DNA of 64,000 nucleotides from Planctomycetota bacterium (GTDB taxonomy: Bacteria > Planctomycetota > UBA8108 > SXIK01): contig OZ244999.1 in assembly GCA_965223265.1 (NCBI GenBank), positions 7,392,001 through 7,456,000 on the forward strand. Direction: 5' to 3'. Under the pieces are notes generated by a model, which was not told the origin of the DNA, searched no databases, and was given only the letters and a program-made list of their open reading frames with translations. This document shows, piece by piece, positions 50,150 through 60,104 of the stretch (positions within the stretch are counted from its first letter, which is position 1; the number at the start of each line of letters is the position of its first letter). Position numbers and translations under genes: made by a program.

Positions 50150-50219
50150 GTGGGAGTGTGGGTGGGAGTGTGGGTGGGAGTGTGGGTGGGAGTGTGGGTG
50201 GGAGTGTGGGTGGGAGTGG
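50150..50219 (+). repeat. 12-nt tandem repeat (GTGGGAGTGTGG) x5 plus partial
   Basis: Read directly from the sequence. Confidence 0.95.
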
Positions 50220-50221
50220 AC

Positions 50222-50335
50222 GTGTCCGGTACGCTTCTGACTCGGTATCGGTATCTGCCTCTGACTCTGACTCCGTATCCGTATCCGCCTCTGCCTCTGG
50301 CTCTGACTCCGTATCTGTTTCCGTATCTGTCTCGT
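50222..50335 (+). repeat. Left flank of cassette A: 36-bp direct repeat followed by degenerate 6-nt-period TCYGNN repeats
   Basis: gtgtccggtacgcttctgactcggtatcggtatctg (50222-50257) recurs at 50961-50996; then tctgac/tccgta/tctgcc units. Confidence 0.9.
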
Positions 50336-50339
50336 CGTC

Positions 50340-50370
50340 AAAACCCGCCGCGCGAAGTGCTGCACGGCGG
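50340..50370 (-). terminator. Hairpin/terminator after four-helix-bundle gene A
   Basis: Minus strand ccgccgtgc..gcgcggcgg-gtttt; conserved behind copy C (about 59290-59321). Confidence 0.55.
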
Positions 50371-50385
50371 ACCAAGGTTTCCGCG

Positions 50386-50709
50386 TCAGCGCGTCAGTTT
50401 CCAGAGCATTGCCTGCAGCCGATCGATGTCCGCAAGCACCGCAGTTGTCTCCACTGCATCGACGTAGCCCCACGCCTCAGCAACGCGCAGAGCCGTCCGC
50501 ACCTCCTCGGCGCTGCCCGAAGCAATGCGCCAAAGATGGCCGCGGTCACGACCCTGACGCCGATTGCCCTCGCCGAGGTTGAGTGCCACTGAAGAACCCG
50601 CGTCGCGCAGCTGAGCGGCCAGCTTTGAGTCGTGACGACGGATGCTCGAGACAAGGGGACGCAGCTGACGAACGATGCCAAAAGTGTGATCCAGAGCAAG
50701 AAAGCTCAT
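50386..50709 (-). CDS. Four helix bundle protein (Avd / 23S rRNA IVS-like), copy A, 107 aa
   Basis: QLRDAGSSVALNLGEG..RIASGSAEEV matches the QxRRA.xSxxxNIAEG..IARGSxxE family signature; ATG at 50709. Confidence 0.9.
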   Translation of the reverse strand: MSFLALDHTFGIVRQLRPLVSSIRRHDSKLAAQLRDAGSSVALNLGEGNRRQGRDRGHLWRIASGSAEEVRTALRVAEAWGYVDAVETTAVLADIDRLQAMLWKLTR

Positions 50710-50754
50710 GTGTGACTCCGGTAACGGCTGAGCGACCTGTCGCCGACGCCCGAC

Positions 50755-50878
50755 GCGGCGGCGTTTCACTGCCGCCAACCGAACGAGAGACGGGGTCAAG
50801 GGCGCGAAGCGCCGAGCGCAGCGAGGGCACCCTTGAGGCCGGCTCTCGTTCGGTTACGATCGACACAATCGCCGCCGC
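50755..50878 (-). other. Conserved nested-hairpin leader of cassette A
   Basis: Invariant 41-nt core at 50796-50836; stems aaccgaacgagag/ctctcgttcggtt and gcggcggcg/cgccgccgc. Confidence 0.85.
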
Positions 50879-50948
50879 ACGCACGCCATAGCAACCCGCC
50901 GCTTCTCTGCCTGCCTCCGACTCGATCTCCGATTCCGCCTCGGAATGC

Positions 50949-51116
50949 GTGGGCGTGGGAGTGTCCGGTACGCTTCTGACTCGGTATCGGTATCTGGCTC
51001 TGACCCGTGTCTCCGTATCTGCCTCTGACTCTGACTCCGTATCCGTATCCGTATCTGCCTCTGACTCTGACTCCGTATCTGTTTCCGCCTCTGCCTCTGA
51101 ACAGAGGCGGATACGG
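50949..51116 (+). repeat. Right flank of cassette A: second 36-bp direct repeat plus 6-nt-period repeats ending in an inverted copy
   Basis: 50961-50996 is identical to 50222-50257; the tract ends in cagaggcggatacgga, complementary to the repeat units. Confidence 0.88.
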
Positions 51117-51151
51117 ACGCCGGGGACGCAGTCGGGACCGGCTCGTTTCGT

Positions 51152-53677
51152 TCACGGCAGATGGGCGCGGCTGCGGATCAACCACTCCACTAGCAGGATT
51201 CCAAGCACGAGTGACAGCAGCAGTAAAGGGGAATCCCACGCCGTCATGGTTTCGGTGTGGGCGGCGACGCGTGAGTCGCGGTGCCACAATTCGCCACACT
51301 CGTCGGCACGGCTGAGGGGCAGAAAGACGCCGTCGGTCAAGGTGGCGAGCTCCTTGAGAAGTGTGGCATTGCAGCTGAGATCTGAGGACTCGGGGTCATC
51401 TTCCGGGACGACCACAAAGGACACGGTCGCACGCTCCTTCGCTGCGTCGTAGCCAGGCACCGTGGCAGGATCGATGGCCGCATGGAATTCGCGCGCTGCG
51501 AGGGTGTTTTTCTCATCCCCATTCACCCTCGCAGGCTCGCCGTTGCCTACGGACTCGAGTAGCCGCTGCGCGGAAACACGGCCTCGATACCGATGCCCGC
51601 CGCGTTCGACGGGTGCCAGCGTGACGCGCAGCCGCGGAGCTCCGGCGGCACTGGTCGTCGCCGCGTCGACCGTGCTGGCCGTGAGCAGGGCGGTGATGCG
51701 GTCGACGTTCGCCGCGGTGACGTCGTCCTTCAAGACGGTCTCGATCGTGATGTCTTCGTTCGACTCGTAGATCGTCTCGCTAGCGCCAAGGCGCAGCGCA
51801 TCGTCTTCTTCACTCAGCTCGGAGAGCACCGCAAATCGCACAAGTTGCTCCCAGAACCGGGTGTGCAGTCGGTCTCCAATGCGATAACGCCATCGCCAGG
51901 TTGAATCGATTCCGAGATAGATCACGCGACCCGCACCGATGTCGCGGGTCACGAGAACCGCGCCTCGCGAATGCACGAATTCGCGAGCTCGCGCGGCGCG
52001 ATTTCGAACGCCCGCCGCAAACGAGTCGAATCCTCTCAACTTCTTCACATCCCGCACGGCTACGCTCGCCAGGACCTCGGCTCCCTCGACAACACCGTCA
52101 ACCGGTGAAAGCCATAGATGGGCTGGGAGAAGCTCCCACAACTCGACGTTGCGTTCGCGATCGGTCAGAAGGCGTGTGATGGGAGATCTTTCGCCAGCAG
52201 GTGTCAACTCGAGGCTCAACCCCTCGCGCGCGGTCACGAAGCCAAGCTGCGTCGACGGCAGCGGATCGACGGGTCGGATCGGTAGTAGATCAGCCAGCGG
52301 CGTTGCGAGCCACGCGTATGGCATGTGCTGCGGTCCCGCCAACAACATCAGGGTGCCGCCGCGCTCAGTGACGAAGTCGTTGAGTAGTCTTTTCAGCTCT
52401 CGCGACATCACGTCGGGTGACACGTCACCGAGGATCAAGAGCGTGTGCTCGAACAGCCCCTCTCGCGTGGTGGGAAATTCCGGCGGCAACACGTCGTTCG
52501 GTGCCGCTGCGAGCAAAAGCGTCTCGGCGTCAAAGCGTTCATCGCGCTGCCAGCGAGCCCGAAGATAGCGCCAGTCCCATCGCGGTCGACCCTCCAGATA
52601 GAGGACTCGCGCTGGGCCTTCCACCACGTCGACCCACAGTTCACGCGTGTTGTTGTCGGCGGTGATCTCCCCGGGCTCCGCCGGCACACTGACGACAAAC
52701 TTCTTACGACCTGCCGCGCCAGGATCGAATGCAACCGATACGCCCATTGTTCCACCCCCGTCGGGCACGGTCAGTCTCTGTTCGAAGATCGTTTCGTCCT
52801 CACGTCGCACGATCACATCCAGAGGAGTGCCTGCGTCAAACCCATTAACTCTGAGAGTCACATGCGCCTTGACGCTCTCACCGACCAAGAGACGGCGATC
52901 AGCGTCGATCCGGAGTAGGTCGACGTCCCGAGGCGGATCGATCGGCCCCACGCCAATGGCAGCAACCGGCGCGTTGAGCGCCGCAATGCGTTCGAAGGCT
53001 GCAGCAAGATCGTCAGGCGAGTGATGCCTGCCGTCGGTGACAAGCAACACGCCGGCAAGTCGCCGCCGATCTGCGAGCCGCATCAGCTCCGCGGCCAAAG
53101 GGGAGCCGAGATGCGTCCCCCCCGCCGCCCGCAGTGAATCCATCGCAGCCTGCTGCTCGGCCGCGTTGTCGCCGGGAAGCGGTGTGACATGGTCGGCGAG
53201 GGCGTAGAACTCTACATCGAAATCCCTCACCAGATCCTGCCACCAGCGCGTCGTAAAGAGTCGACGTGCGCGCTCGAGGCGCGTTGATCGACGCACGCGC
53301 TCGAGGACGACACGACTGGATTCGTCGATGTCGTGCTCGGACGCCGCGAGCTTTTCGGTCGGCAGATACTCCAGCACGGCCGCCTCACCGCGCACGGCGG
53401 CAGACGATTGCTGCGGATCGGTGAGGCCGAAGCTGGCGGAGGCGTCGAGCATCACCGCCAGAGTTGAGTGTTCGACTCGCCGCCGCTCACGCTGCCAACT
53501 CGGATTGGCGAGCAACGTGACGACGACAGCAATGAGCACGAGACGCGTCCCCGTGATGGCGATCGCGACTCCAGCGCCGCTAGCCCGCCGCTCACGCCCA
53601 CCCAGCGAGTATGCCAAACCCGCGGCACAGGCGAGCAGGACAACTACCCACTGAAGGCTCAGACCGGGGTCACTCAT
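51152..53677 (-). CDS. vWA-domain membrane protein with GATase-like domain (MoxR-associated)
   Basis: MIDAS VMLDASASF, LVTDG, IGVG, VLYLEGRPRWDWRYL, DSTWRWR, C-terminal EWLIR TM. Confidence 0.85.
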   Translation of the reverse strand: MSDPGLSLQWVVVLLACAAGLAYSLGGRERRASGAGVAIAITGTRLVLIAVVVTLLANPSWQRERRRVEHSTLAVMLDASASFGLTDPQQSSAAVRGEAAVLEYLPTEKLAASEHDIDESSRVVLERVRRSTRLERARRLFTTRWWQDLVRDFDVEFYALADHVTPLPGDNAAEQQAAMDSLRAAGGTHLGSPLAAELMRLADRRRLAGVLLVTDGRHHSPDDLAAAFERIAALNAPVAAIGVGPIDPPRDVDLLRIDADRRLLVGESVKAHVTLRVNGFDAGTPLDVIVRREDETIFEQRLTVPDGGGTMGVSVAFDPGAAGRKKFVVSVPAEPGEITADNNTRELWVDVVEGPARVLYLEGRPRWDWRYLRARWQRDERFDAETLLLAAAPNDVLPPEFPTTREGLFEHTLLILGDVSPDVMSRELKRLLNDFVTERGGTLMLLAGPQHMPYAWLATPLADLLPIRPVDPLPSTQLGFVTAREGLSLELTPAGERSPITRLLTDRERNVELWELLPAHLWLSPVDGVVEGAEVLASVAVRDVKKLRGFDSFAAGVRNRAARAREFVHSRGAVLVTRDIGAGRVIYLGIDSTWRWRYRIGDRLHTRFWEQLVRFAVLSELSEEDDALRLGASETIYESNEDITIETVLKDDVTAANVDRITALLTASTVDAATTSAAGAPRLRVTLAPVERGGHRYRGRVSAQRLLESVGNGEPARVNGDEKNTLAAREFHAAIDPATVPGYDAAKERATVSFVVVPEDDPESSDLSCNATLLKELATLTDGVFLPLSRADECGELWHRDSRVAAHTETMTAWDSPLLLLSLVLGILLVEWLIRSRAHLP

Positions 53678-53981
53678 TGAACTGATATAGGGTCTTCCGT
53701 ATCAAGAGGTCGCCGCGACAGCTCCTGGCCCGCCGCTCCCATCGCGGCGATGAATATCCTCTGGAAAAGAATGGAGACATTATCGTCACTTGCGTCTATG
53801 CAAGGCTATCATCTCTCCGACAAACGGCCGATCACATCATGAGACGGCTATTCGTGGCGACGATATACCTGCGCGGTGGAGACTCGATGCCGGCGAGTTC
53901 TCGGCCGACTGACAGCGCTGCGGGCAGCGAATTCACGGACGAAACACCGGTGAACCGAACGCGAGGAGGAGCCCCTATCAG

Positions 53982-56900
53982 GTGACTGCGTCCAAACCGA
54001 ATACTCTTGCGGCTCTCCTGACGACGCAGTTTCTCGGCGCGTTCAACGACAACGCCTGGAAGATGGTGGCGATTCTTCTCGGCACCCGCGTCGCAAGCGA
54101 CGCGGACCGTCTCGCCGAGAGCAGTCGGCAGTGGACGCTTGCATTCGTCGCCTTCAGCGTGCCATACCTGATTCTATCGCTTCCCGCGGGATCGTTGGCA
54201 GACCGCGTCAGCAAGCGTACTGTGCTGATTGTGGCCAAAGCGGTCGAGATGGCACTCATGATCGCGGGGCTGGCTGTCCTCGTCTTGGCGCCGAATGAGC
54301 CGTGGCTTCTCCTTGGCATCCTCGCCTGCATGGGGGCGCAGTCGGCACTTCTTGGACCCGCAAAGTACGGCATCGTGCCAGAACTCGTGCCGCACTCGCG
54401 GCTCTCGTCGGCGAACGGACAAATCGAGCTCTGGACCTTTGCGGCGATCGTTCTCGGCACTGCGGGAGGTGGCGTCCTTCTCGATCTCAGCGAGACTGCC
54501 ACCGACGGAGTGTGGCTCGTCGGCATCGCCCTTGTGGTTCTAGCCGCCGTCGGACTCGCCGCCTCGCGTCGCGTACCGCACGTTCCAGCGGTCGGCAGCC
54601 GTGAACCACTCGTCGCGACCGTCCACGGTGCATGGAATTCCATTCGTTCCGAACGCATTCTCTGGCTGACCGTTCTAGGGCTCACATTCTATTGGGGAAT
54701 CATTTCGCTTGTCGGTCAAGTGATCGGCATCTACGTGCAGAACGATCTCAAAGCGACGGACGCGCAGGCCGGACTACCGCTGGCGATCTTCGGTGTCGGT
54801 GTCGGTGTCGGCAGCCTGTTCGCCGGGCACTTTTCGCGCGGCAAGGTCGAGTCGGGACTGATCCCATTTGGTGCCCTTGGCCTGGCAACGACACTCGTGC
54901 TCATGGGAAATCTGCCGCCCGAGTCCGTCAGCACGATGCTGCCGTGGGCCTTCGCGATGGGGTTTGCGAGCGGACTCATGATTGTGCCGCTCAACGCACT
55001 CCTGCAGTGGCGCTCACCGGAGAATCGTCGCGGCGCGATTATCGCGCTGTCGAACGTCTTCGTATCGGTCGGCATCATCGCGGGCTCCTTGAGCTCCAAC
55101 CTCCTATCAGCCTGGGGCAACACGGCGAGCTCGAGCATTCTGAGCGCCGGCGTCCTCACCGTCATCGGGTCTCTTTGGTCGCTCTGGATCCTACCAAGCG
55201 CGTTTCTTCGCCTGCTCCTGCTCCTCCTGACGAACACGCTCTACCGACTCAAGATTCTCGGACGGGCTAATGTGCCCGAAACCGGTGGCGCACTTCTCGT
55301 CCCGAACCACGTCTCGTTCGCCGACGGTTTGTTTCTCATCGCCAGTGTCGATCGGCCGATTCGATTCATCGTCGACGCGAACTACTTCCATCATCCAGTG
55401 CTTAAGCCGTTCATGAAGTCGCTTGGAGCCATCCCAATCACGGCAGCAGGCGGCCCACGGGTGGTCTTGCGTGCGCTCCGTGACGCAGGGGAATACTTGG
55501 AGCAAGGGCACCTGGTGTGCATCTTCGCCGAGGGACAAATTACGCGCACCGGCATGCTGCTCCCGTTTCGCCGCGGACTCGAGCGCATCGTCAAAGGCCG
55601 GAATGTGCCCATCATTCCGGTCCACCTTGATGGCGCCTGGGGCAGCGTCTTTAGCCGCTCGGGCGGGCGCTTCTTGCTGAAGATTCCGCAACGAGTCCCG
55701 TATCCGATCACGGTGACGTTCGGGGAAACCCTCGACCCAGGCACGAGGGTCGCAGATATCAGACGGTCCGTGCACGAGCTCAGCGAAGTCGCGTGGCGCA
55801 GTCGCACCTCAGAGCGGCGTCCACTGCACCATTCCTACATCAAGCGCGCGCGGCGCCGCCCGCTGCGACTAATCTTCGCGGATGCAACGAAGCCGAAAGT
55901 GACTGGGTTCGCTTCCCTGGTCGGAGCCATCGCCTTGGCTCGAGCACTACGCCGACACTGGCCCGGAAGCGAACGCGTTGGTATTCTTCTGCCCTCGTCG
56001 GTCGCTGGAGCGTTGACCAACATCGCTGCGACCATGGCTGGAAAAACCAGCGTCAACCTAAACTTCACCACCGGACAGTCAAGCTTCGAGTCAGCGATTC
56101 GCCAGTCGGGACTGAAAAGCGTAGTGACGAGTCGACAGATGCTGGAGAAGGTCCAGCTGACAATTCCAGAAGGCGTCACCACAGTGTGGTTAGAAGATGT
56201 TCACAAGAACATCGGCGTCGGGGCCAAATTGTTTGCCTTCATGATTGCTGCGTTGGCACCGACGCGTGTCGTCGAGCGCGCATGCGGATCTGAGAAGAAG
56301 ATCACCGGCGGCGACACGGTAACGATCATCTTTAGCAGCGGCAGTACCGGAGAACCAAAGGGCGTTATGCTCACCCACGCGAACATCGATGCGAACGTCG
56401 AAGGCGTCGCCCAAGTGACCCGTGTCAACGCCGACGATTGTTTGATCGGACTCCTTCCTCTATTCCACTCATTCGGATACATGGCGCTCTGGTTCGCGGC
56501 GAATCGCCGTCTAGCGACCGTGTTTCATCCCAACCCGTTGGACGCCGGCATGGTGGGCGAGCTCGTCCACCGCTACAGCGTCTCGCTCCTGATCGCCACC
56601 CCAACCTTCCTGCAGCTCTACCTACGGCGCTGCACGCCGGCCCAGTTCGGCTCACTGAGGCTTGTACTGGTCGGCGCAGAAAAGCTATCTGACCGTTTGG
56701 CGCTGGCTTTCGAAGAACAGTTCGGCATCCGTCCCGTAGAGGGCTACGGAGCGACGGAGTGCTCGCCGGCGATCACGGTGAGCGCAGGAGACTATCGCGC
56801 CCCAGGTTTCTTCCAGCCTGGCTCGCGCCGTGGATCTGTGGGCCAACCGCTACCCGGCGTGGCTGTCCGTATCGTAAACCCTGACAGCCGAGAAGAACTG

Positions 56901-57413
56901 CCTTTCGGCGAAGCAGGGTTGATCCTCGTCAAGGGTCCCAACGTCATGCAGGGCTATCTGGGACGCGACGACCTGACCGAAGAGGCGATGAAGGATGGCT
57001 GGTACGTCACAGGTGACATCGGGGTGATGGACGAAGACGGCTTTCTTCGCATCACGGATCGCCTCTCTCGGTTTTCGAAGATTGGTGGAGAGATGGTCCC
57101 GCACGGACGCGTCGAGGCCGCCCTCCAAGAAGCTGCCGGAGAGGACATGCAGGTCTTCGCTGTGACGTCCATCGTCGACGATCGAAAGGGTGAAAAACTC
57201 ATCGTACTCCACACCCTCGACGAAGACCGGATTCCGAAGATCGTTGAACAGCTCGCTCAAGCGGGGCTCCCGAATCTGTTTGTGCCACGGCCGGACCAGT
57301 TCCTCAAGGTTGAAACCCTCCCCGTGTTGGGCACGGGCAAGCTCGATCTACGTGCGATCAAGACCATCGCCGAGGAGGCGTTCGCGCCGTCGACAGCCGC
57401 GGGCGATCGTTAG
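53982..57413 (+). CDS. aas: Acyl-ACP--phospholipid O-acyltransferase / acyl-ACP synthetase fused to an LplT-like MFS domain
   Basis: TQFLGAFNDN MFS start, PlsC NHVSFAD and FAEG, AMP-binding FSSGSTGEPKGV, EGYGATE, DRLSRFSKIGGEMV. Confidence 0.93.
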   Translation: MTASKPNTLAALLTTQFLGAFNDNAWKMVAILLGTRVASDADRLAESSRQWTLAFVAFSVPYLILSLPAGSLADRVSKRTVLIVAKAVEMALMIAGLAVLVLAPNEPWLLLGILACMGAQSALLGPAKYGIVPELVPHSRLSSANGQIELWTFAAIVLGTAGGGVLLDLSETATDGVWLVGIALVVLAAVGLAASRRVPHVPAVGSREPLVATVHGAWNSIRSERILWLTVLGLTFYWGIISLVGQVIGIYVQNDLKATDAQAGLPLAIFGVGVGVGSLFAGHFSRGKVESGLIPFGALGLATTLVLMGNLPPESVSTMLPWAFAMGFASGLMIVPLNALLQWRSPENRRGAIIALSNVFVSVGIIAGSLSSNLLSAWGNTASSSILSAGVLTVIGSLWSLWILPSAFLRLLLLLLTNTLYRLKILGRANVPETGGALLVPNHVSFADGLFLIASVDRPIRFIVDANYFHHPVLKPFMKSLGAIPITAAGGPRVVLRALRDAGEYLEQGHLVCIFAEGQITRTGMLLPFRRGLERIVKGRNVPIIPVHLDGAWGSVFSRSGGRFLLKIPQRVPYPITVTFGETLDPGTRVADIRRSVHELSEVAWRSRTSERRPLHHSYIKRARRRPLRLIFADATKPKVTGFASLVGAIALARALRRHWPGSERVGILLPSSVAGALTNIAATMAGKTSVNLNFTTGQSSFESAIRQSGLKSVVTSRQMLEKVQLTIPEGVTTVWLEDVHKNIGVGAKLFAFMIAALAPTRVVERACGSEKKITGGDTVTIIFSSGSTGEPKGVMLTHANIDANVEGVAQVTRVNADDCLIGLLPLFHSFGYMALWFAANRRLATVFHPNPLDAGMVGELVHRYSVSLLIATPTFLQLYLRRCTPAQFGSLRLVLVGAEKLSDRLALAFEEQFGIRPVEGYGATECSPAITVSAGDYRAPGFFQPGSRRGSVGQPLPGVAVRIVNPDSREELPFGEAGLILVKGPNVMQGYLGRDDLTEEAMKDGWYVTGDIGVMDEDGFLRITDRLSRFSKIGGEMVPHGRVEAALQEAAGEDMQVFAVTSIVDDRKGEKLIVLHTLDEDRIPKIVEQLAQAGLPNLFVPRPDQFLKVETLPVLGTGKLDLRAIKTIAEEAFAPSTAAGDR

Positions 57414-57481
57414 CGCCAGCTGGAATTTGGCCATTCGGCGCGCCAAGGCGGTAAGCGCTGCGCGTGCGCGTGGGCGTGGGA

Positions 57482-57521
57482 GTGAGAGCGGTGTGAGAGC
57501 GGTGTGAGAGCGGTGTGAGAG
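57482..57521 (+). repeat. 11-nt tandem repeat (GTGAGAGCGGT) x3 plus partial
   Basis: Read directly from the sequence. Confidence 0.9.
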
Positions 57522-57710
57522 TCGGCGTGGGCGATCGCGTGGCGCGTGGGGTTTCCTAAACTAGCGGGTGCACGCCGAGGCTGTGAATCTTTTGGGACGT
57601 GCCCTCGAAACTTACGGTCACGGTCCGGACGACACACGTCACCGTGTGCCGTCCGCTCTTGCGAGAGCGAGAGGGGGAGTCCGTGTGGGAGTGGGAGGGG
57701 GAGTGGGAGG

Positions 57711-58348
57711 GGGAGTCCGTGTGGGAGTCCGTGTGGGAGGGGGTGCGCGCCTCTTCAACGTGGCAGGCACACGCCGTGTGCCGTCCGGCCTTGTCGGCGT
57801 GCGCGTCGGCCGTTCCCGTGGGTGTGGGAGTCCGTGTGGGAGTCCGTGTGGGAGGGGGTGCGCGCCTCTTCAACGTGGCAGGCACACGCCGTGTGCCGTC
57901 CGGCCTTGTCGGCGTGCGCGTCGGCCGTTCCCGTGGGTGTGGGAGTCCGTGTGGGAGTCCGTGTGGGAGGGGGTGCGCGCCTCTTCAACGTGGCAGGCAC
58001 ACGCCGTGTGCCGTCCGGCCTTGTCGGCGTGCGCGTCGGCCGTTCCCGTGGGTGTGGGAGTCCGTGTGGGAGTCCGTGTGGGAGGGGGTGCGCGCCTCTT
58101 CAACGTGGCAGGCACACGCCGTGTGCCGTCCGGCCTTGTCGGCGTGCGCGTCGGCCGTTCCCGTGGGTGTGGGAGTCCGTGTGGGAGTCCGTGTGGGAGG
58201 GGGTGCGCGCCTCTTCAACGTGGCAGGCACACGCCGTGTGCCGTCCGGCCTTGTCGGCGTGCGCGTCGGCCGTTCCCGTGGGTGTGGGAGTCCGTGTGGG
58301 AGTCCGTGTGGGAGTCCGTGTGGGAGTCCGTGTGGGAGTCCGTGTGGG
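57711..58348 (+). repeat. Tandem array of 5 identical 115-bp units, ending in (GTGTGGGAGTCC) x5
   Basis: ctcttcaacg recurs at 57751, 57866, 57981, 58096 and 58211; each unit has 12-mers plus the palindrome ggcacac-gcc-gtgtgcc. Confidence 0.95.
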
Positions 58349-58363
58349 TTGGGGTCACCGTAC

Positions 58364-58484
58364 GGCGGCGGTCTTGTCGAGCTTACGCGGTGCTCAGAAC
58401 TGTCAAGGGTGCCCTCGCTGCGCTCGGCGCTTCGCGCCCTTGACAGTTCCTCCGCTCCGCGTTGGGGGGTGGAGTACCGCCGCC
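58364..58484 (+). other. Conserved nested-hairpin leader of cassette B
   Basis: Invariant 41-nt core at 58403-58443; stems gaactg/cagttc, acgcgg/ccgcgt, ggcggcggt/accgccgcc. Confidence 0.85.
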
Positions 58485-58526
58485 CGGATGCGGCGGGCTC
58501 TTGACTCACCGTTTCGGAGGTCTCTC

Positions 58527-58850
58527 ATGCGCTTCATCGCTCTCGATGTCAGTCTCGGTTTGATTCGCGATTTGCGGGCTCCACTGCTGCGGCTTCGGAG
58601 GCTTGATCCCGATCTCCATCGGCAGATTCGGCGGGCTGCTTCTTCGGTCGCGCTCAATCTCTCCGAGGGTGCCGAGCGCGCTGGGAAAGACCGGCTGCAC
58701 CTCTACCGCGTTGCGCGCGGCAGTGCCCGGGAGGTCGAGACTGCCCTGCAGCTCTCTGTGGCCTGGGGCGATCTCAAGTGCGAAGACGTCTCAGCGCCTC
58801 TCCAGACCCTCGATCGACTCCTAGCTCTTCTCAGCGGCCTCACGCGCTGA
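58527..58850 (+). CDS. Four helix bundle protein, copy B, 107 aa
   Basis: SD ggagg, ATG at 58527; QIRRAASSVALNLSEG..RVARGSAREV. Confidence 0.9.
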   Translation: MRFIALDVSLGLIRDLRAPLLRLRRLDPDLHRQIRRAASSVALNLSEGAERAGKDRLHLYRVARGSAREVETALQLSVAWGDLKCEDVSAPLQTLDRLLALLSGLTR

Positions 58851-58862
58851 GCGAGACTACTG

Positions 58863-58890
58863 AGCGCCCGCTACTTTCGTAGCGGGCGCT
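58863..58890 (+). terminator. 12-bp perfect hairpin after gene B
   Basis: agcgcccgctac-tttc-gtagcgggcgct; no T-tract follows. Confidence 0.55.
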
Positions 58891-58915
58891 GCTCACGGCG
58901 ACTTCTGGATCTGAT

Positions 58916-59290
58916 TCTGACTCTGTCATCTGGTTCTGTATTTCTATCCGTCTCTGATTCTGTCCCGACAGTTGCATAAGTTTTCGCAGGAAGGGCTCAG
59001 AAACCCTTTCCCTGAGGTTCGATCGGCAGTCGAAGGACGTCGCGGCGGACCTCACGTTTGGTGAGGTTGACGGTGTGCCGTGTTCCCTCTCGCCCACGCA
59101 CACCCACACGCAAACGCACACGCAAACTCTCACTCAACCGCAATCGCGCACGGTCTTAAGGCGCGTCTCTTTTGCAACGTTGGGGTCTGACTCTGTAATC
59201 TGGTTCTGTATCTCTATCCGCCATCCGTCTCTGATTCTGTCTCTGACTCCGGTTCCGTCCCCGTCTCTCCCTCTGCCTCTCCCCCACCTC
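58916..59290 (+). repeat. Low-complexity spacer between B and C with a duplicated ~50-bp 6-nt-period block
   Basis: tctgactctgt(c/a)atctggttctgtat(t/c)tctatccg..tctctgattctgtc at 58916-58964 and 59186-59241. Confidence 0.8.
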
Positions 59291-59337
59291 AAAACCCGCC
59301 GCGCCAAAAAAAGCACGGCGGCCCCAAGACCCAAAGC

Positions 59338-59661
59338 TCAGCGCGTCAGCTTCCAAAGCATCGCCTGCAGCTCGTCGATGTCCGCAAGCACCGAAGCTGT
59401 CTCCTGCGCATCGACGTAGCCCCAAGCCTCAGCAACACGGAGCGCCGTACGCACCTCTTCGGCACTGCCTGAAGCGACACGCCAAAGGTGCCCGCGGTCA
59501 CGACCAGAGCGCCGATTGCCCTCGCCCAAATTCAGCGCCACGGAGGACCCCGCGTCGCGCAGCTGAGCGGCAAGCTTCGAGTCGTGACGACGCACACGCG
59601 AGACAAGCGGACGCAACTGACGAACGATACCAACAGAGTGATCCAAAGCGAGAAAGCCCAT
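59338..59661 (-). CDS. Four helix bundle protein, copy C, 107 aa
   Basis: Differs from copy A at 11 of 107 residues (counted by eye); same family signature. Confidence 0.9.
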   Translation of the reverse strand: MGFLALDHSVGIVRQLRPLVSRVRRHDSKLAAQLRDAGSSVALNLGEGNRRSGRDRGHLWRVASGSAEEVRTALRVAEAWGYVDAQETASVLADIDELQAMLWKLTR

Positions 59662-59710
59662 GAGCGACTCCAGTCAACCGGTTGAGTGAAACTCTCGCCG
59701 CACGCCCGAC

Positions 59711-59834
59711 GCGGCGGCGTTTCACCCCCGCCAACGGAAGCAGAGTCGGGGTCAAGGGCGCGAAGCGCCGAGCGCAGCGAGGGCACCCTTGAGGCCGGCT
59801 CTGCTTCGGTTACGCTCGACAATACCGCCGCCGC
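59711..59834 (-). other. Conserved nested-hairpin leader of cassette C
   Basis: Invariant core at 59752-59792; stems gaagcagag/ctctgcttc and gcggcggcg/cgccgccgc. Confidence 0.85.
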
Positions 59835-59860
59835 AAACGCCCCTTGGCGGCACACCTCTT

Positions 59861-59992
59861 CTCTGCTTCTGTCTCTGCTTCTGTCTCTGCTTCTGTCTCT
59901 GCTTCTGTCTCTGCTTCTGTCTCTGCTTCTGTCTCTGCTTCTGTCTCTGCTTCTGTCTCTGCTTCTGTCTCTGCTTCTGTCTCTGCTTCTGT
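59861..59992 (+). repeat. Perfect 12-nt tandem repeat (CTCTGCTTCTGT) x11
   Basis: Read directly from the sequence. Confidence 0.97.
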
Positions 59993-60104
59993 CTCTGTCT
60001 CCGACTCACTAGGCGTCGACGTCTGCTTGACCTCTGAATCGCGGTGAACTCCGCAGGTCAGACGGGCGCGAATGGCTGCCAGACTCGCTAGACCCAAGGA
60101 CAGG

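What the first reader, a model, noticed from the sequence alone, without database searches (positions are those of the whole stretch)
50150..59992. Repeated cassette: structured leader + 107-aa four-helix-bundle gene + simple-repeat flanks (candidate undescribed element)
Seen: three 324-nt genes (A 50386-50709 -, B 58527-58850 +, C 59338-59661 -) share one layout: simple repeats, then a ~125-nt nested hairpin about 45-50 nt before the ATG, then the gene, a 3' hairpin and more simple repeats. By eye A and C are about 90% identical and B and C about 50% identical at protein level, yet the 41-nt hairpin core is identical in all three. Tandem simple repeats were noticed nowhere else in the 64 kb. 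Known: this fold family includes DGR accessory protein Avd (binds nucleic acid and RT) and 23S-IVS proteins; the function of stand-alone copies is unknown. Inference: a minimal, probably non-autonomous mobile or regulatory unit in which the protein binds its cognate structured nucleic acid and whose spread is linked to repeat generation or repeat-mediated recombination.
Basis: partly seen in the sequence, partly recalled or inferred. Interest (0 to 1): 0.9.

Follow-up and report, generated by a model that had tools for sequence, protein, structure and literature searches.

The report
Multicopy four-helix-bundle gene cassette family
The three small genes belong to a family of about 36 inserted copies of one compact unit (a folded RNA leader plus a gene of the enigmatic "23S rRNA intervening-sequence / Avd-like" protein family) lodged in strand-polarised six-base repeat arrays, which offers a tractable way to ask what these proteins do.

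Summary
The 9.18-Mb genome carries 36 intact and at least 5 decayed copies of a ~0.55-kb cassette. Each has a ~127-nt structured leader, a 107-aa PF05635/TIGR02436 gene and a GC-rich 3' hairpin. There are two subfamilies about 50% identical in protein; 34 of 36 intact genes carry the 41-nt core.

- **Insertions.** A related genus keeps the same five-gene synteny with spacers of 32 nt and -23 nt, against 1,246 and 2,691 nt here.
- **RNA leader.** The hairpin shows compensatory changes and sense-strand G.U pairs in both subfamilies. It therefore most likely acts as RNA, not as a DNA recombination site.
- **Arrays.** The simple repeats are not private to the cassette: about 300 hexamer-period arrays exist genome-wide. 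They are strongly enriched at cassettes, co-occur with these genes across genomes and phyla, flank the cassettes as direct repeats, and are polarised relative to replication.
- **Selection.** The paralogs are under purifying selection (dN/dS about 0.13).
- **Target use.** A 2.67-kb serine-recombinase element uses the leader core as its integration site.

Protein-leader binding and the route of spread remain untested. This scan has noted repeat-flanked cassettes of this gene family in many other genomes. My literature searches found no description.

The parts
50150..50333 (.). Arrays downstream of gene A: (GTGGGAGTGTGG)x5.8 at 50150-50218 and TCTGNN-type hexamers at 50236-50333
   Evidence: TRF; sequence
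50340..50375 (-). GC-rich 3' hairpin after gene A (no T-run)
   Evidence: sequence; aligned with all copies; no consensus terminator found in the B/C region scanned
50386..50709 (-). Gene A, type I four-helix-bundle protein (107 aa)
50751..50878 (-). Structured leader of A (core 50796-50836)
   Evidence: model R1 hit at G000:C1:7442751-7442878, 131 bits; core
50975..51100 (.). Hexamer arrays upstream of A (TCTGNN on + strand)
   Evidence: TRF
57703..58314 (+). 115-bp tandem unit x5.3, each a REP-like hairpin (GGCACACGCCGTGTGCC) plus G/T-rich hexamers
   Evidence: TRF; sequence; the same unit lies upstream of other type II copies
58282..58348 (+). (GTGTGGGAGTCC)x5.6 array abutting leader B
   Evidence: TRF
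58362..58487 (+). Structured leader of B (core 58403-58443)
   Evidence: R1 hit at G000:C1:7450362-7450487, 136.7 bits; core
58527..58850 (+). Gene B, type II four-helix-bundle protein (107 aa)
58862..58890 (+). GC-rich 3' hairpin after gene B
   Evidence: sequence; alignment
58953..59185 (.). Independent ~230-bp MITE-like repeat between B and C, with imperfect terminal inverted repeats and an internal C/A-rich hexamer array
   Evidence: blastn (many dispersed copies at 75-98% identity); sequence
59292..59326 (-). GC-rich 3' hairpin after gene C
   Evidence: sequence; alignment
59338..59661 (-). Gene C, type I four-helix-bundle protein (107 aa)
59707..59834 (-). Structured leader of C (core 59752-59792)
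   Evidence: R1 hit at G000:C1:7451707-7451834, 134 bits; core
59860..59997 (.). Perfect (TCTCTGCTTCTG)x11.5 array upstream of C; the same 12-mer precedes 6 type I copies
   Evidence: TRF

Best explanation
A, B and C are copies of a proliferated, recombinase-less gene cassette of the 23S-IVS-protein / Avd-fold family (PF05635). Each ~0.55-kb unit has a ~127-nt leader hairpin, a 107-aa four-helix-bundle gene and a 3' hairpin. The units are insertions into intergenic DNA, always within or beside a genome-wide system of replication-polarised hexamer arrays and REP hairpins. SHOWN: copy number and two subfamilies; empty orthologous sites; a leader structure with covariation that is read on the sense strand; purifying selection on the protein; association with arrays at three levels; fixed orientation of each subfamily relative to the arrays and to replication. 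INFERRED: the leader works as RNA. It is a long RNase III-type stem that processes or gates translation of a cassette mRNA made largely by read-through. In the Myxococcota relatives the base of this stem sequesters the Shine-Dalgarno sequence. Its invariant apical loop is the probable docking site for the encoded Avd-like oligomer, giving autoregulation. Spread does not use the leader. It uses the surrounding arrays and REPs, either by replication-coupled strand-specific insertion (a single RAYT-type Y1 transposase is present) or by ectopic recombination between arrays.
For: Copy family: 36 intact genes and 5 fragments. The core precedes 34 of 36 intact genes at -121 to -143. Unit length is 540-580 bp.

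Insertion: G001 keeps the order [236-aa gene]<-[841-aa gene]<-[X]-><-[Y]. Its spacers are 32 nt and a 23-nt overlap, against 1,246 and 2,691 nt here, and it has no arrays there.

Patchy distribution: PF05635 is found in 6 of 40 relatives and in 0 of 3 same-family genomes.

Leader structure: 34 pairs with 96.6% of cells paired. 12 pairs change on both sides. The covariation score is 0.265, against 0.105 for shuffles (0 of 500 reach it) and 0.074 or less for slid controls.

Sense strand: G.U versus A.C cells are 47:6 (type I), 36:3 (type II) and 24:1 (G007). Yet type I lies on the leading strand in 16 of 17 copies and type II on the lagging strand in 15 of 19.

Same leader upstream of PF05635 genes in G007 and G021.

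SD sequestration in relatives: 22 of 31 evaluated loci pair the SD with a partner more than 50 nt upstream. Perfect CTCCTTTCGG...CCGAAAGGAG arms are visible.

Selection: dN/dS is 0.14 (type I) and 0.13 (type II) at dS about 0.5.

Fold: AF2 pLDDT 96.5 with four helices. TM-score is 0.80-0.90 to 2RLD/2GSC and 0.83-0.86 to Avd in 4DWL and the DGR ribonucleoprotein 8UB7.

Arrays: 33 of 36 cassettes have an array within 600 bp. 61 arrays lie within 1 kb of the genes against 3.1 expected. 39 of 57 related loci in other phyla have arrays, at 0.49 per kb against 0.03 per kb in control loci. Genome-level co-occurrence is 4 of 6 versus 4 of 34 (Fisher p 0.0095; kin are not independent).

Polarity: arrays read R on the leading strand in 67 of 85 cases and M in 69 of 83. 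Long ORFs are 51% leading.

RAYT and REPs: one Y1_Tnp gene flanked by REP arrays; 319 GTAG-REPs; REPs abut type II cassettes.
Against: No expression data exist, so a transcript, its ends and any processing are unproven. No sigma-70-like promoter or canonical terminator was found; this fits read-through but proves nothing. In this genome the SD is not consistently sequestered: long-range pairing appears in only 10 of 36 MFE folds, and there is no shuffled control. Full-length leader homologues occur in 8 of 100 metagenome contigs searched without any four-helix-bundle gene. The hairpin is therefore not strictly a cis partner of the protein. At dS about 0.5, with 36 of 41 copies intact, the family could equally be a long-kept host gene family. 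Upstream neighbours are co-oriented in only 17 of 28 scorable cases (p 0.35, crude ORF proxy), so read-through is not general. No target duplication or terminal repeats of the cassette itself were identified. Covariation rests on about three lineages of paralogs, so the independent events are few.
Confidence: 0.5

Rival explanations
1. The hairpin is a single-stranded DNA site and the cassette is a palindrome-associated (IS200/IS605- or REP/RAYT-type) or attC-like element. It would be cut and pasted at the replication fork by a trans-acting HUH or integron enzyme.
For: There is strong replication-strand polarity of cassettes and arrays. One RAYT-like gene and 319 GTAG-REPs are present. Direct REPs flank one type II subfamily. 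The loop motif also occurs in attC-like contexts ending in GTTAGGC in metagenomes. A serine-recombinase element does use the core as a DNA site.
Against: G.U pairs are on the gene-sense strand in both subfamilies, although the subfamilies have opposite replication orientation. The hairpin is internal to the unit, not terminal. No integron integrase scores above cut-off; the best hit is 96 bits against 265. Five copies with a split leader still keep intact genes.
Confidence: 0.13
2. This is an ordinary host multigene family, for example an RNA or nucleoid chaperone or a defence accessory. It expanded by duplication and is kept for dosage or diversity, and the arrays are unrelated intergenic microsatellites.
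For: dN/dS is about 0.13 with old divergence (dS about 0.5), and 36 of 41 copies are intact. Two conserved subfamilies often occur as convergent I/II pairs (7 pairs). PF05635 genes were reported in cas loci (passage read in PMC3936711).
Against: Empty orthologous sites and absence from all 3 same-family genomes argue against it. Copies sit at contig ends in other assemblies. Decayed and internally deleted copies exist. The enrichment near arrays and the genome-level co-occurrence are hard to explain if the arrays are unrelated.
Confidence: 0.17
3. This is an IVS-type element in the strict sense: the gene lies in the loop of a long stem made by inverted flanking arms, and RNase III excises the whole unit from a host transcript. 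That is the reading given for repeat-armed cassettes elsewhere in this scan.
For: The gene family matches. The scan's earlier follow-ups report inverted arrays around relatives. In the 7 convergent pairs the two leaders are themselves inverted repeats (74% over 196 nt) that bracket both genes. L148 has strongly inverted arrays.
Against: In 0 of 36 cassettes here is the inverted similarity of the flanks stronger than the direct one; 22 are direct and 14 show none. Among close relatives the split is 8 inverted, 7 direct and 23 none, of 38. None of the cassettes lies in the single 23S rRNA gene.
Confidence: 0.1
4. This is a retroelement accessory. The Avd-like protein would work with a reverse transcriptase in trans, and the hexamer arrays would be its templated products.
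For: The protein has the Avd fold. Four identical RT genes are present. Arrays and genes co-occur across genomes.
Against: The RTs are 435-aa proteins that I read as group II intron maturase type from the sequence; no family scan was run. They lie far from any cassette. No TR/VR pair was looked for, and the arrays vary at fixed hexamer positions in a way that does not look like adenine mutagenesis (by eye). Many relatives' contigs show no RT nearby, but this was not searched systematically.
Confidence: 0.05

Closest known systems
ORF-bearing intervening sequences (IVS) of 23S rRNA, e.g. the 428-nt Coxiella burnetii IVS encoding S23p (PMC4990558, abstract read)
   Same: The protein family is the same (PF05635/TIGR02436). 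Both are small selfish units built of one gene plus a long RNase III-type stem, horizontally acquired and with a patchy distribution.
   Different: The cassette here is not in rRNA. The stem precedes the gene instead of enclosing it. There are 36 copies in two subfamilies under purifying selection, whereas the Coxiella ORF is reported as decaying. The cassettes are embedded in polar hexamer arrays.
Avd, the accessory protein of diversity-generating retroelements (4DWL; DGR RNP 8UB7; PF05635 link in passages of PMC10053308 read)
   Same: It shares the four-helix-bundle fold (TM-score 0.83-0.86). Avd is bound to structured RNA in the solved ribonucleoprotein entry, which fits a structured nucleic acid next to the gene here.
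   Different: There is no adjacent RT. No template or variable repeats were identified. Sequence identity is about 10%, and phmmer against the PDB finds only 2GSC.
REP/RAYT systems and IS200/IS605 single-strand transposons (properties recalled, no paper read)
   Same: Both involve hairpin repeats dispersed in intergenic DNA, orientation bias relative to replication, and one Y1 transposase gene flanked by REP arrays.
   Different: The cassette carries a protein gene unrelated to HUH enzymes. Its hairpin has an RNA-type strand signature. REPs abut only a subset of type II copies.
RNase III-processed or SD-sequestering mRNA leaders such as the phage lambda N leader (recalled)
   Same: Both have a long leader stem just upstream of the start codon. 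In relatives the SD lies in the 3' base of the stem.
   Different: The element is multicopy and mobile. The apical loop is conserved across families of bacteria. Processing has not been shown.

Membership tests
PF05635 / TIGR02436 four-helix-bundle (23S rRNA IVS protein) family | Profile match above the curated cut-off | tested here: met
   PF05635 scores 50-55 bits against a cut-off of 33.8 for A, B and C. TIGR02436 scores 52-58 bits against a cut-off of 24 for B and C.
PF05635 / TIGR02436 four-helix-bundle (23S rRNA IVS protein) family | Four-helix up-down bundle like 2GSC/2RLD | tested here: met
   The AF2 model has pLDDT 96.5 with helices at 2-26, 28-50, 53-80 and 85-106. Foldseek TM-score is 0.80-0.90 to 2RLD and 2GSC.
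PF05635 / TIGR02436 four-helix-bundle (23S rRNA IVS protein) family | Motif GxxRxxxSxxxNxxE (as quoted in PMC3936711) | tested here: inconclusive
   S40-x3-N44-x2-E47 and R35 are invariant in alignment A1. The leading G is absent, and the R-to-S spacing is one residue longer when counted from S40.
23S rRNA intervening sequence (IVS) | Located inside a 23S rRNA helix | tested here: not met
   The single LSU gene is at G000:C1:2007925-2010917. The nearest cassette is about 31 kb away.
23S rRNA intervening sequence (IVS) | ORF enclosed by inverted terminal arms that form the excision stem | tested here: not met
   Of 36 cassettes, 0 have flanks that are more inverted than direct; 22 are direct and 14 show none.
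23S rRNA intervening sequence (IVS) | Excision by RNase III | not testable with these tools
   No RNA runs were listed.
DGR Avd | Adjacent DGR-type reverse transcriptase with template/variable repeats | tested here: not met
   The only RVT_1 hits are 4 identical copies at 1.90, 3.42, 3.52 and 5.91 Mb, none next to a cassette. TR/VR pairs were not searched.
Integron gene cassette (attC + IntI) | Integron integrase in the genome | tested here: not met
   The best TIGR02249 segment scores 96 bits against a cut-off of 265, and the IntI-specific middle part is unmatched.
REP/RAYT or IS200/IS605-type non-autonomous element | Y1 (HUH) transposase present and hairpins at both element ends on one strand | tested here: inconclusive
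   One Y1_Tnp gene scores 27.3 bits against a cut-off of 23. Same-strand GTAG-REPs flank the subfamily at 4592886, 5649696, 5662681 and 6172892, but most cassettes lack them. Cleavage sites were not tested.
Any Rfam RNA family | Covariance-model match to the leader | tested here: not met
   There were 0 hits at gathering score in the window. Only a chance-level snoRNA hit (E 1.8) appeared in 57300-60100. Only 2 tRNAs were found in 20 metagenome loci.

The most novel reading that the evidence does not exclude
The four-helix-bundle protein is the trans-acting factor of a previously unrecognised, replication-polarised repeat system. Like Avd with its RT, it would act as an adaptor that brings a host or mobile enzyme to structured nucleic acid. 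The ~300 bipartite hexamer arrays, most of them gene-less, would be the system's non-autonomous members or footprints. This would explain why arrays and these genes co-occur across phyla.
Probability: 0.15. Interest if true: 0.9.

Novelty: new variant of a known kind. Interest (0 to 1): 0.75.

Why it matters
PF05635 proteins are widespread: they occur in 23S rRNA intervening sequences, as DGR Avd and in cas loci. Outside DGRs they have no known function. This genome offers a natural experiment. It has 36 selected copies in two subfamilies, a conserved RNA element to test for binding and processing, defined empty sites, split-leader alleles made by a serine-recombinase element, and a strand-polar array system that travels with the genes. 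If the link between protein, leader and arrays is mechanistic, it would define a new kind of bacterial repeat or mobile system. It would also explain rRNA intervening sequences as one special case.

Tried and rejected
Rfam: no family matches the leader.

Integron reading: no integron integrase scores above cut-off.

DGR reading: the only RT genes are 4 identical copies far from the cassettes.

IVS-style inverted arms: tested and not found here. They are mixed among close relatives.

Read-through from a co-oriented upstream gene: 17 of 28 scorable cases (8 of 36 had no scorable neighbour), not significant. The ORF proxy is crude and includes spurious repeat ORFs.

Consensus promoter/terminator scan of 58250-59900: 0 and 0.

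Expression: no RNA holder was listed.

Exact core (3 or fewer mismatches) in 40 relatives: 0 of 40. This is uninformative because no genome of the same genus is held.

Loop-motif scans of metagenome and viral contigs returned at least 120 and 27 contigs. Roughly a hundred chance hits are expected by my own rough estimate. Only 1 of 147 loci holds a four-helix-bundle gene, and 8 of the first 100 match the whole leader model. The remaining 47 loci were not searched with the model.

Literature: four searches found no description of non-rRNA PF05635 cassettes with repeat arrays. Supplements were closed and might hold relevant tables.

A possible alternative pairing of the P1 3' strand with a downstream GCGGCGG was seen by eye in A3 but was not counted.

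I did not run complex prediction, because I make no claim that needs it.


Full report
**1. Observation.**
The three genes are open 107-codon frames. All three match PF05635, and B and C, the two scanned, match TIGR02436. A/C are 89.7% and B/C 51.4% identical in protein. The 41-nt core is identical in all three. Arrays of 6- or 12-nt period flank each gene, and elsewhere in the window TRF finds only weak short rows. A GC-rich hairpin follows each stop codon.

**2. Genome-wide picture.**
The window is G000:C1:7392001-7456000 of a single 9.18-Mb contig with 60.8% G+C. tblastn finds 36 intact genes and 5 fragments, and the Pfam search agrees with 36 hits over the cut-off. The genes fall into type I (A/C-like, 17 copies) and type II (B-like, 19 copies). 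Identity is 81-100% within a type and about 50% between types.

The core, allowing 6 or fewer mismatches, occurs 39 times. It starts 121-143 nt before the ATG of 34 of 36 intact genes, on the same strand. The two exceptions have a deleted or diverged leader. The five other cores lie in decayed cassettes, for example an internal deletion at 8664830 and a frameshifted copy at 1008786.

Homology between copies spans 540-580 bp. Seven loci hold a convergent type I / type II pair, B and C being one of them. No same-type pairs occur.

**3. The cassettes are insertions.**
In G001 (same family, 4 contigs, no PF05635 gene) the neighbours of all three cassettes are syntenic:

| Site | G001 | G000 (this genome) |
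|---|---|---|
| Between the 841-aa gene and the 236-aa gene (holds A) | 32 nt | 1,246 nt |
| Between convergent genes X and Y (holds B and C) | 23-nt overlap | 2,691 nt |

G001 has no arrays at either site. PF05635 was found in 6 of 40 relatives and in none of the 3 same-family genomes. In G007 and G017 many copies sit at contig ends, which is typical of unresolved repeats.

**4. The leader is a conserved structure, read on the sense strand.**
I aligned 27 leaders from this genome with 8 from G007, which belongs to another family of the same order (A3). RNAalifold gives a nested hairpin of four helices, P1 to P4.

On 34 pairs, 96.6% of cells are paired and 12 pairs change on both sides. The covariation score is 0.265. 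Shuffles average 0.105 (0 of 500 reach the observed value), and slid controls reach 0.074 or less. The caveat is that the sequences are paralogs from about three lineages.

G.U pairs greatly outnumber A.C cells: 47:6 in type I, 36:3 in type II and 24:1 in G007. Types I and II lie on opposite strands relative to replication (section 6). A structure selected on the gene-sense strand in both is therefore best explained as RNA.

A covariance model (R1) finds the leader in only one of 150 sampled genomes of the phylum, G021. Both hits there lie just upstream of PF05635 genes.

In the closest relatives from other phyla, mostly Myxococcota MAGs, the leader is a different long hairpin. Its 5' base is an anti-Shine-Dalgarno sequence. 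In MFE folds the SD pairs with a partner more than 50 nt upstream in 22 of 31 evaluated loci; 5 further loci had no recognisable SD. In this genome that holds for only 10 of 36.

**5. The hairpin also exists alone.**
The 18-nt loop motif occurs in many metagenome and viral contigs, often as the loop of unrelated hairpins or in attC-like contexts. Of the first 100 loci, 8 match the whole 127-position model, with compensatory P1 sequences. Only 1 of all 147 loci holds a four-helix-bundle gene. The neighbours there include a relaxase-like, an integrase-like and transposase-like ORFs; I judged this by eye from N-terminal sequence, with no family scan. The hairpin is therefore a module that is not strictly tied to the gene.

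**6. Arrays.**
TRF finds 489 merged arrays genome-wide, 299 of them with a period that is a multiple of 6 (34 kb). Of these, 61 lie within 1 kb of a cassette or fragment, against 3.1 expected. 33 of 36 cassettes have an array within 600 bp.

Two main classes recur: NNCRGA ("R"; its complement is "Y") and C/A-rich CNNNCG-like ("M"; its complement is "K"). Stand-alone bipartite R-then-M arrays are common.

The syntax is fixed. Type I reads R ... leader-gene-hairpin-R-M. Type II reads K (with REP hairpins)-leader-gene-hairpin-REP or Y. The flanks are direct repeats in 22 of 36 cassettes and inverted-dominant in 0 of 36.

From cumulative GC skew the origin is near 7.95 Mb and the terminus near 3.52 Mb. 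The leading strand reads R in 67 of 85 R/Y arrays and M in 69 of 83 M/K arrays. Type I genes are on the leading strand in 16 of 17 copies and type II on the lagging strand in 15 of 19. Frames of 500 or more codons are 51% leading.

The association also holds elsewhere:
- 39 of 57 related loci outside G007 carry hexamer-period arrays, at 0.49 per kb. Control loci have 0.03 per kb (21 of 147 loci).
- Among 40 relatives, (NNCRGA)x6 arrays occur in 4 of 6 genomes with PF05635 and in 4 of 34 without. Kin are not independent, and several of these assemblies are fragmented.

**7. Protein.**
dN/dS among paralogs is 0.14 for type I (136 pairs) and 0.13 for type II (171 pairs), with mean dS about 0.5. 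The AF2 model is a confident four-helix bundle. Its closest structures are 2RLD and 2GSC, followed by Avd in 8UB7 and 4DWL (TM-score 0.83-0.86). By sequence only 2GSC is found.

**8. Candidate trans factors.**
- Four identical RT genes, which I read as group II intron type.
- One RAYT-like Y1 transposase flanked by REP arrays, and 319 GTAG-REPs, 67% of them on the leading strand.
- No integron integrase.
- A single 23S rRNA gene without a cassette.

**9. A serine-recombinase element targets the leader.**
Five type II cassettes, and a sixth that is decayed, have a 2,670-bp element inserted at the GT just 5' of CAAGGG in the core. The left arm of the leader lies on the far side of the element. 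The element encodes a 696-aa large serine recombinase with Resolvase, Recombinase and Zn_ribbon_recom domains.

The element copies are 99.9-100% identical, while the flanking cassette parts are 79-96% identical. The insertions are therefore recent and independent, and the conserved core serves as the element's attachment site. Type I leaders have CT, not GT, at that position.

**10. Reading.**
The data support a proliferated, selected, recombinase-less cassette of the IVS-protein family whose leader acts as RNA. Its insertion and persistence are coupled to a polar array/REP system. Protein-leader binding, RNase III processing and the actual mobilisation route are inferences.

Earlier follow-ups in this scan describe repeat-armed cassettes of the same gene family in many genomes. 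This genome differs in having direct, polar arrays and a leader placed before the gene rather than around it.

**11. Literature.**
I read the abstract of PMC4990558 and passages of PMC3936711 and PMC10053308. I saw search listings only for the rest. None describes such cassettes.

Noticed in passing
G000:C1:2581249-2583918 (L359); also about 6779130-6781799, 7186468-7189137, 8597855-8600524, 8979590-8982259 and 8835385-8838123: A 2,670-bp element encodes a 696-aa large serine recombinase (Resolvase + Recombinase + Zn ribbon). It is inserted at the same GT inside the leader of 5-6 type II cassettes. The element copies are 99.9-100% identical, while the flanking cassette parts are 79-96% identical. 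The leader core therefore serves as its attachment site.
   Followed up: yes
window 58953-59185: A ~230-bp MITE-like repeat has imperfect 13-bp terminal inverted repeats (CCCGACAGTTGCA / TGCAACGTTGGGG) and an internal C/A-rich hexamer array. Many copies are dispersed in the genome. Similar ends bound stand-alone M arrays.
   Followed up: partly
whole genome G000 (ori about 7.95 Mb, ter about 3.52 Mb): About 300 hexamer-period arrays, often bipartite (NNCRGA)n then (CNNNCG)n, are oriented with replication in about 80% of cases. Long ORFs show no strand bias (51%).
   Followed up: partly
window 57703-58314; L116:1794-2340: Tandem units of a REP-like hairpin plus G/T-rich hexamers form a 115-bp period, x5.3. 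The same kind of REP-plus-hexamer array lies directly downstream of the genome's single RAYT-like gene (L116:1120-1767).
   Followed up: partly
L213, L236, L246, L275, L194, L224, L273, L274 (metagenome contigs): The loop motif CCCTCGCTNCGCTCGGCG sits in hairpins that end in GCGTTAGGC-like words, which resembles integron attC sites. This was not tested with an attC model.
   Followed up: no
G000:C1:4913460-4913800 (leader of the copy at 4913137): A ~170-bp insertion with inverted ends (AGCCTGTTGAAAAAG ... CTTTTTCAACGGGCT) and a possible TTAAC duplication splits the 5' arm of a type I leader. It looks like another small MITE.
   Followed up: no
L091:1810-1900 (G005): A single PF05635 gene is preceded by (CGGACT)n and then a perfect ~31-bp-arm palindrome. 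The 3' arm of the palindrome contains the Shine-Dalgarno sequence.
   Followed up: no
G000:C1:96878-97699, 2249231-2250052, 3519399-3520220, 3569525-3570346: Four identical copies of a 316-aa tyrosine recombinase, and four identical RT genes that I read as group II intron type (1.90, 3.42, 3.52 and 5.91 Mb), point to other recently active mobile elements.
   Followed up: no
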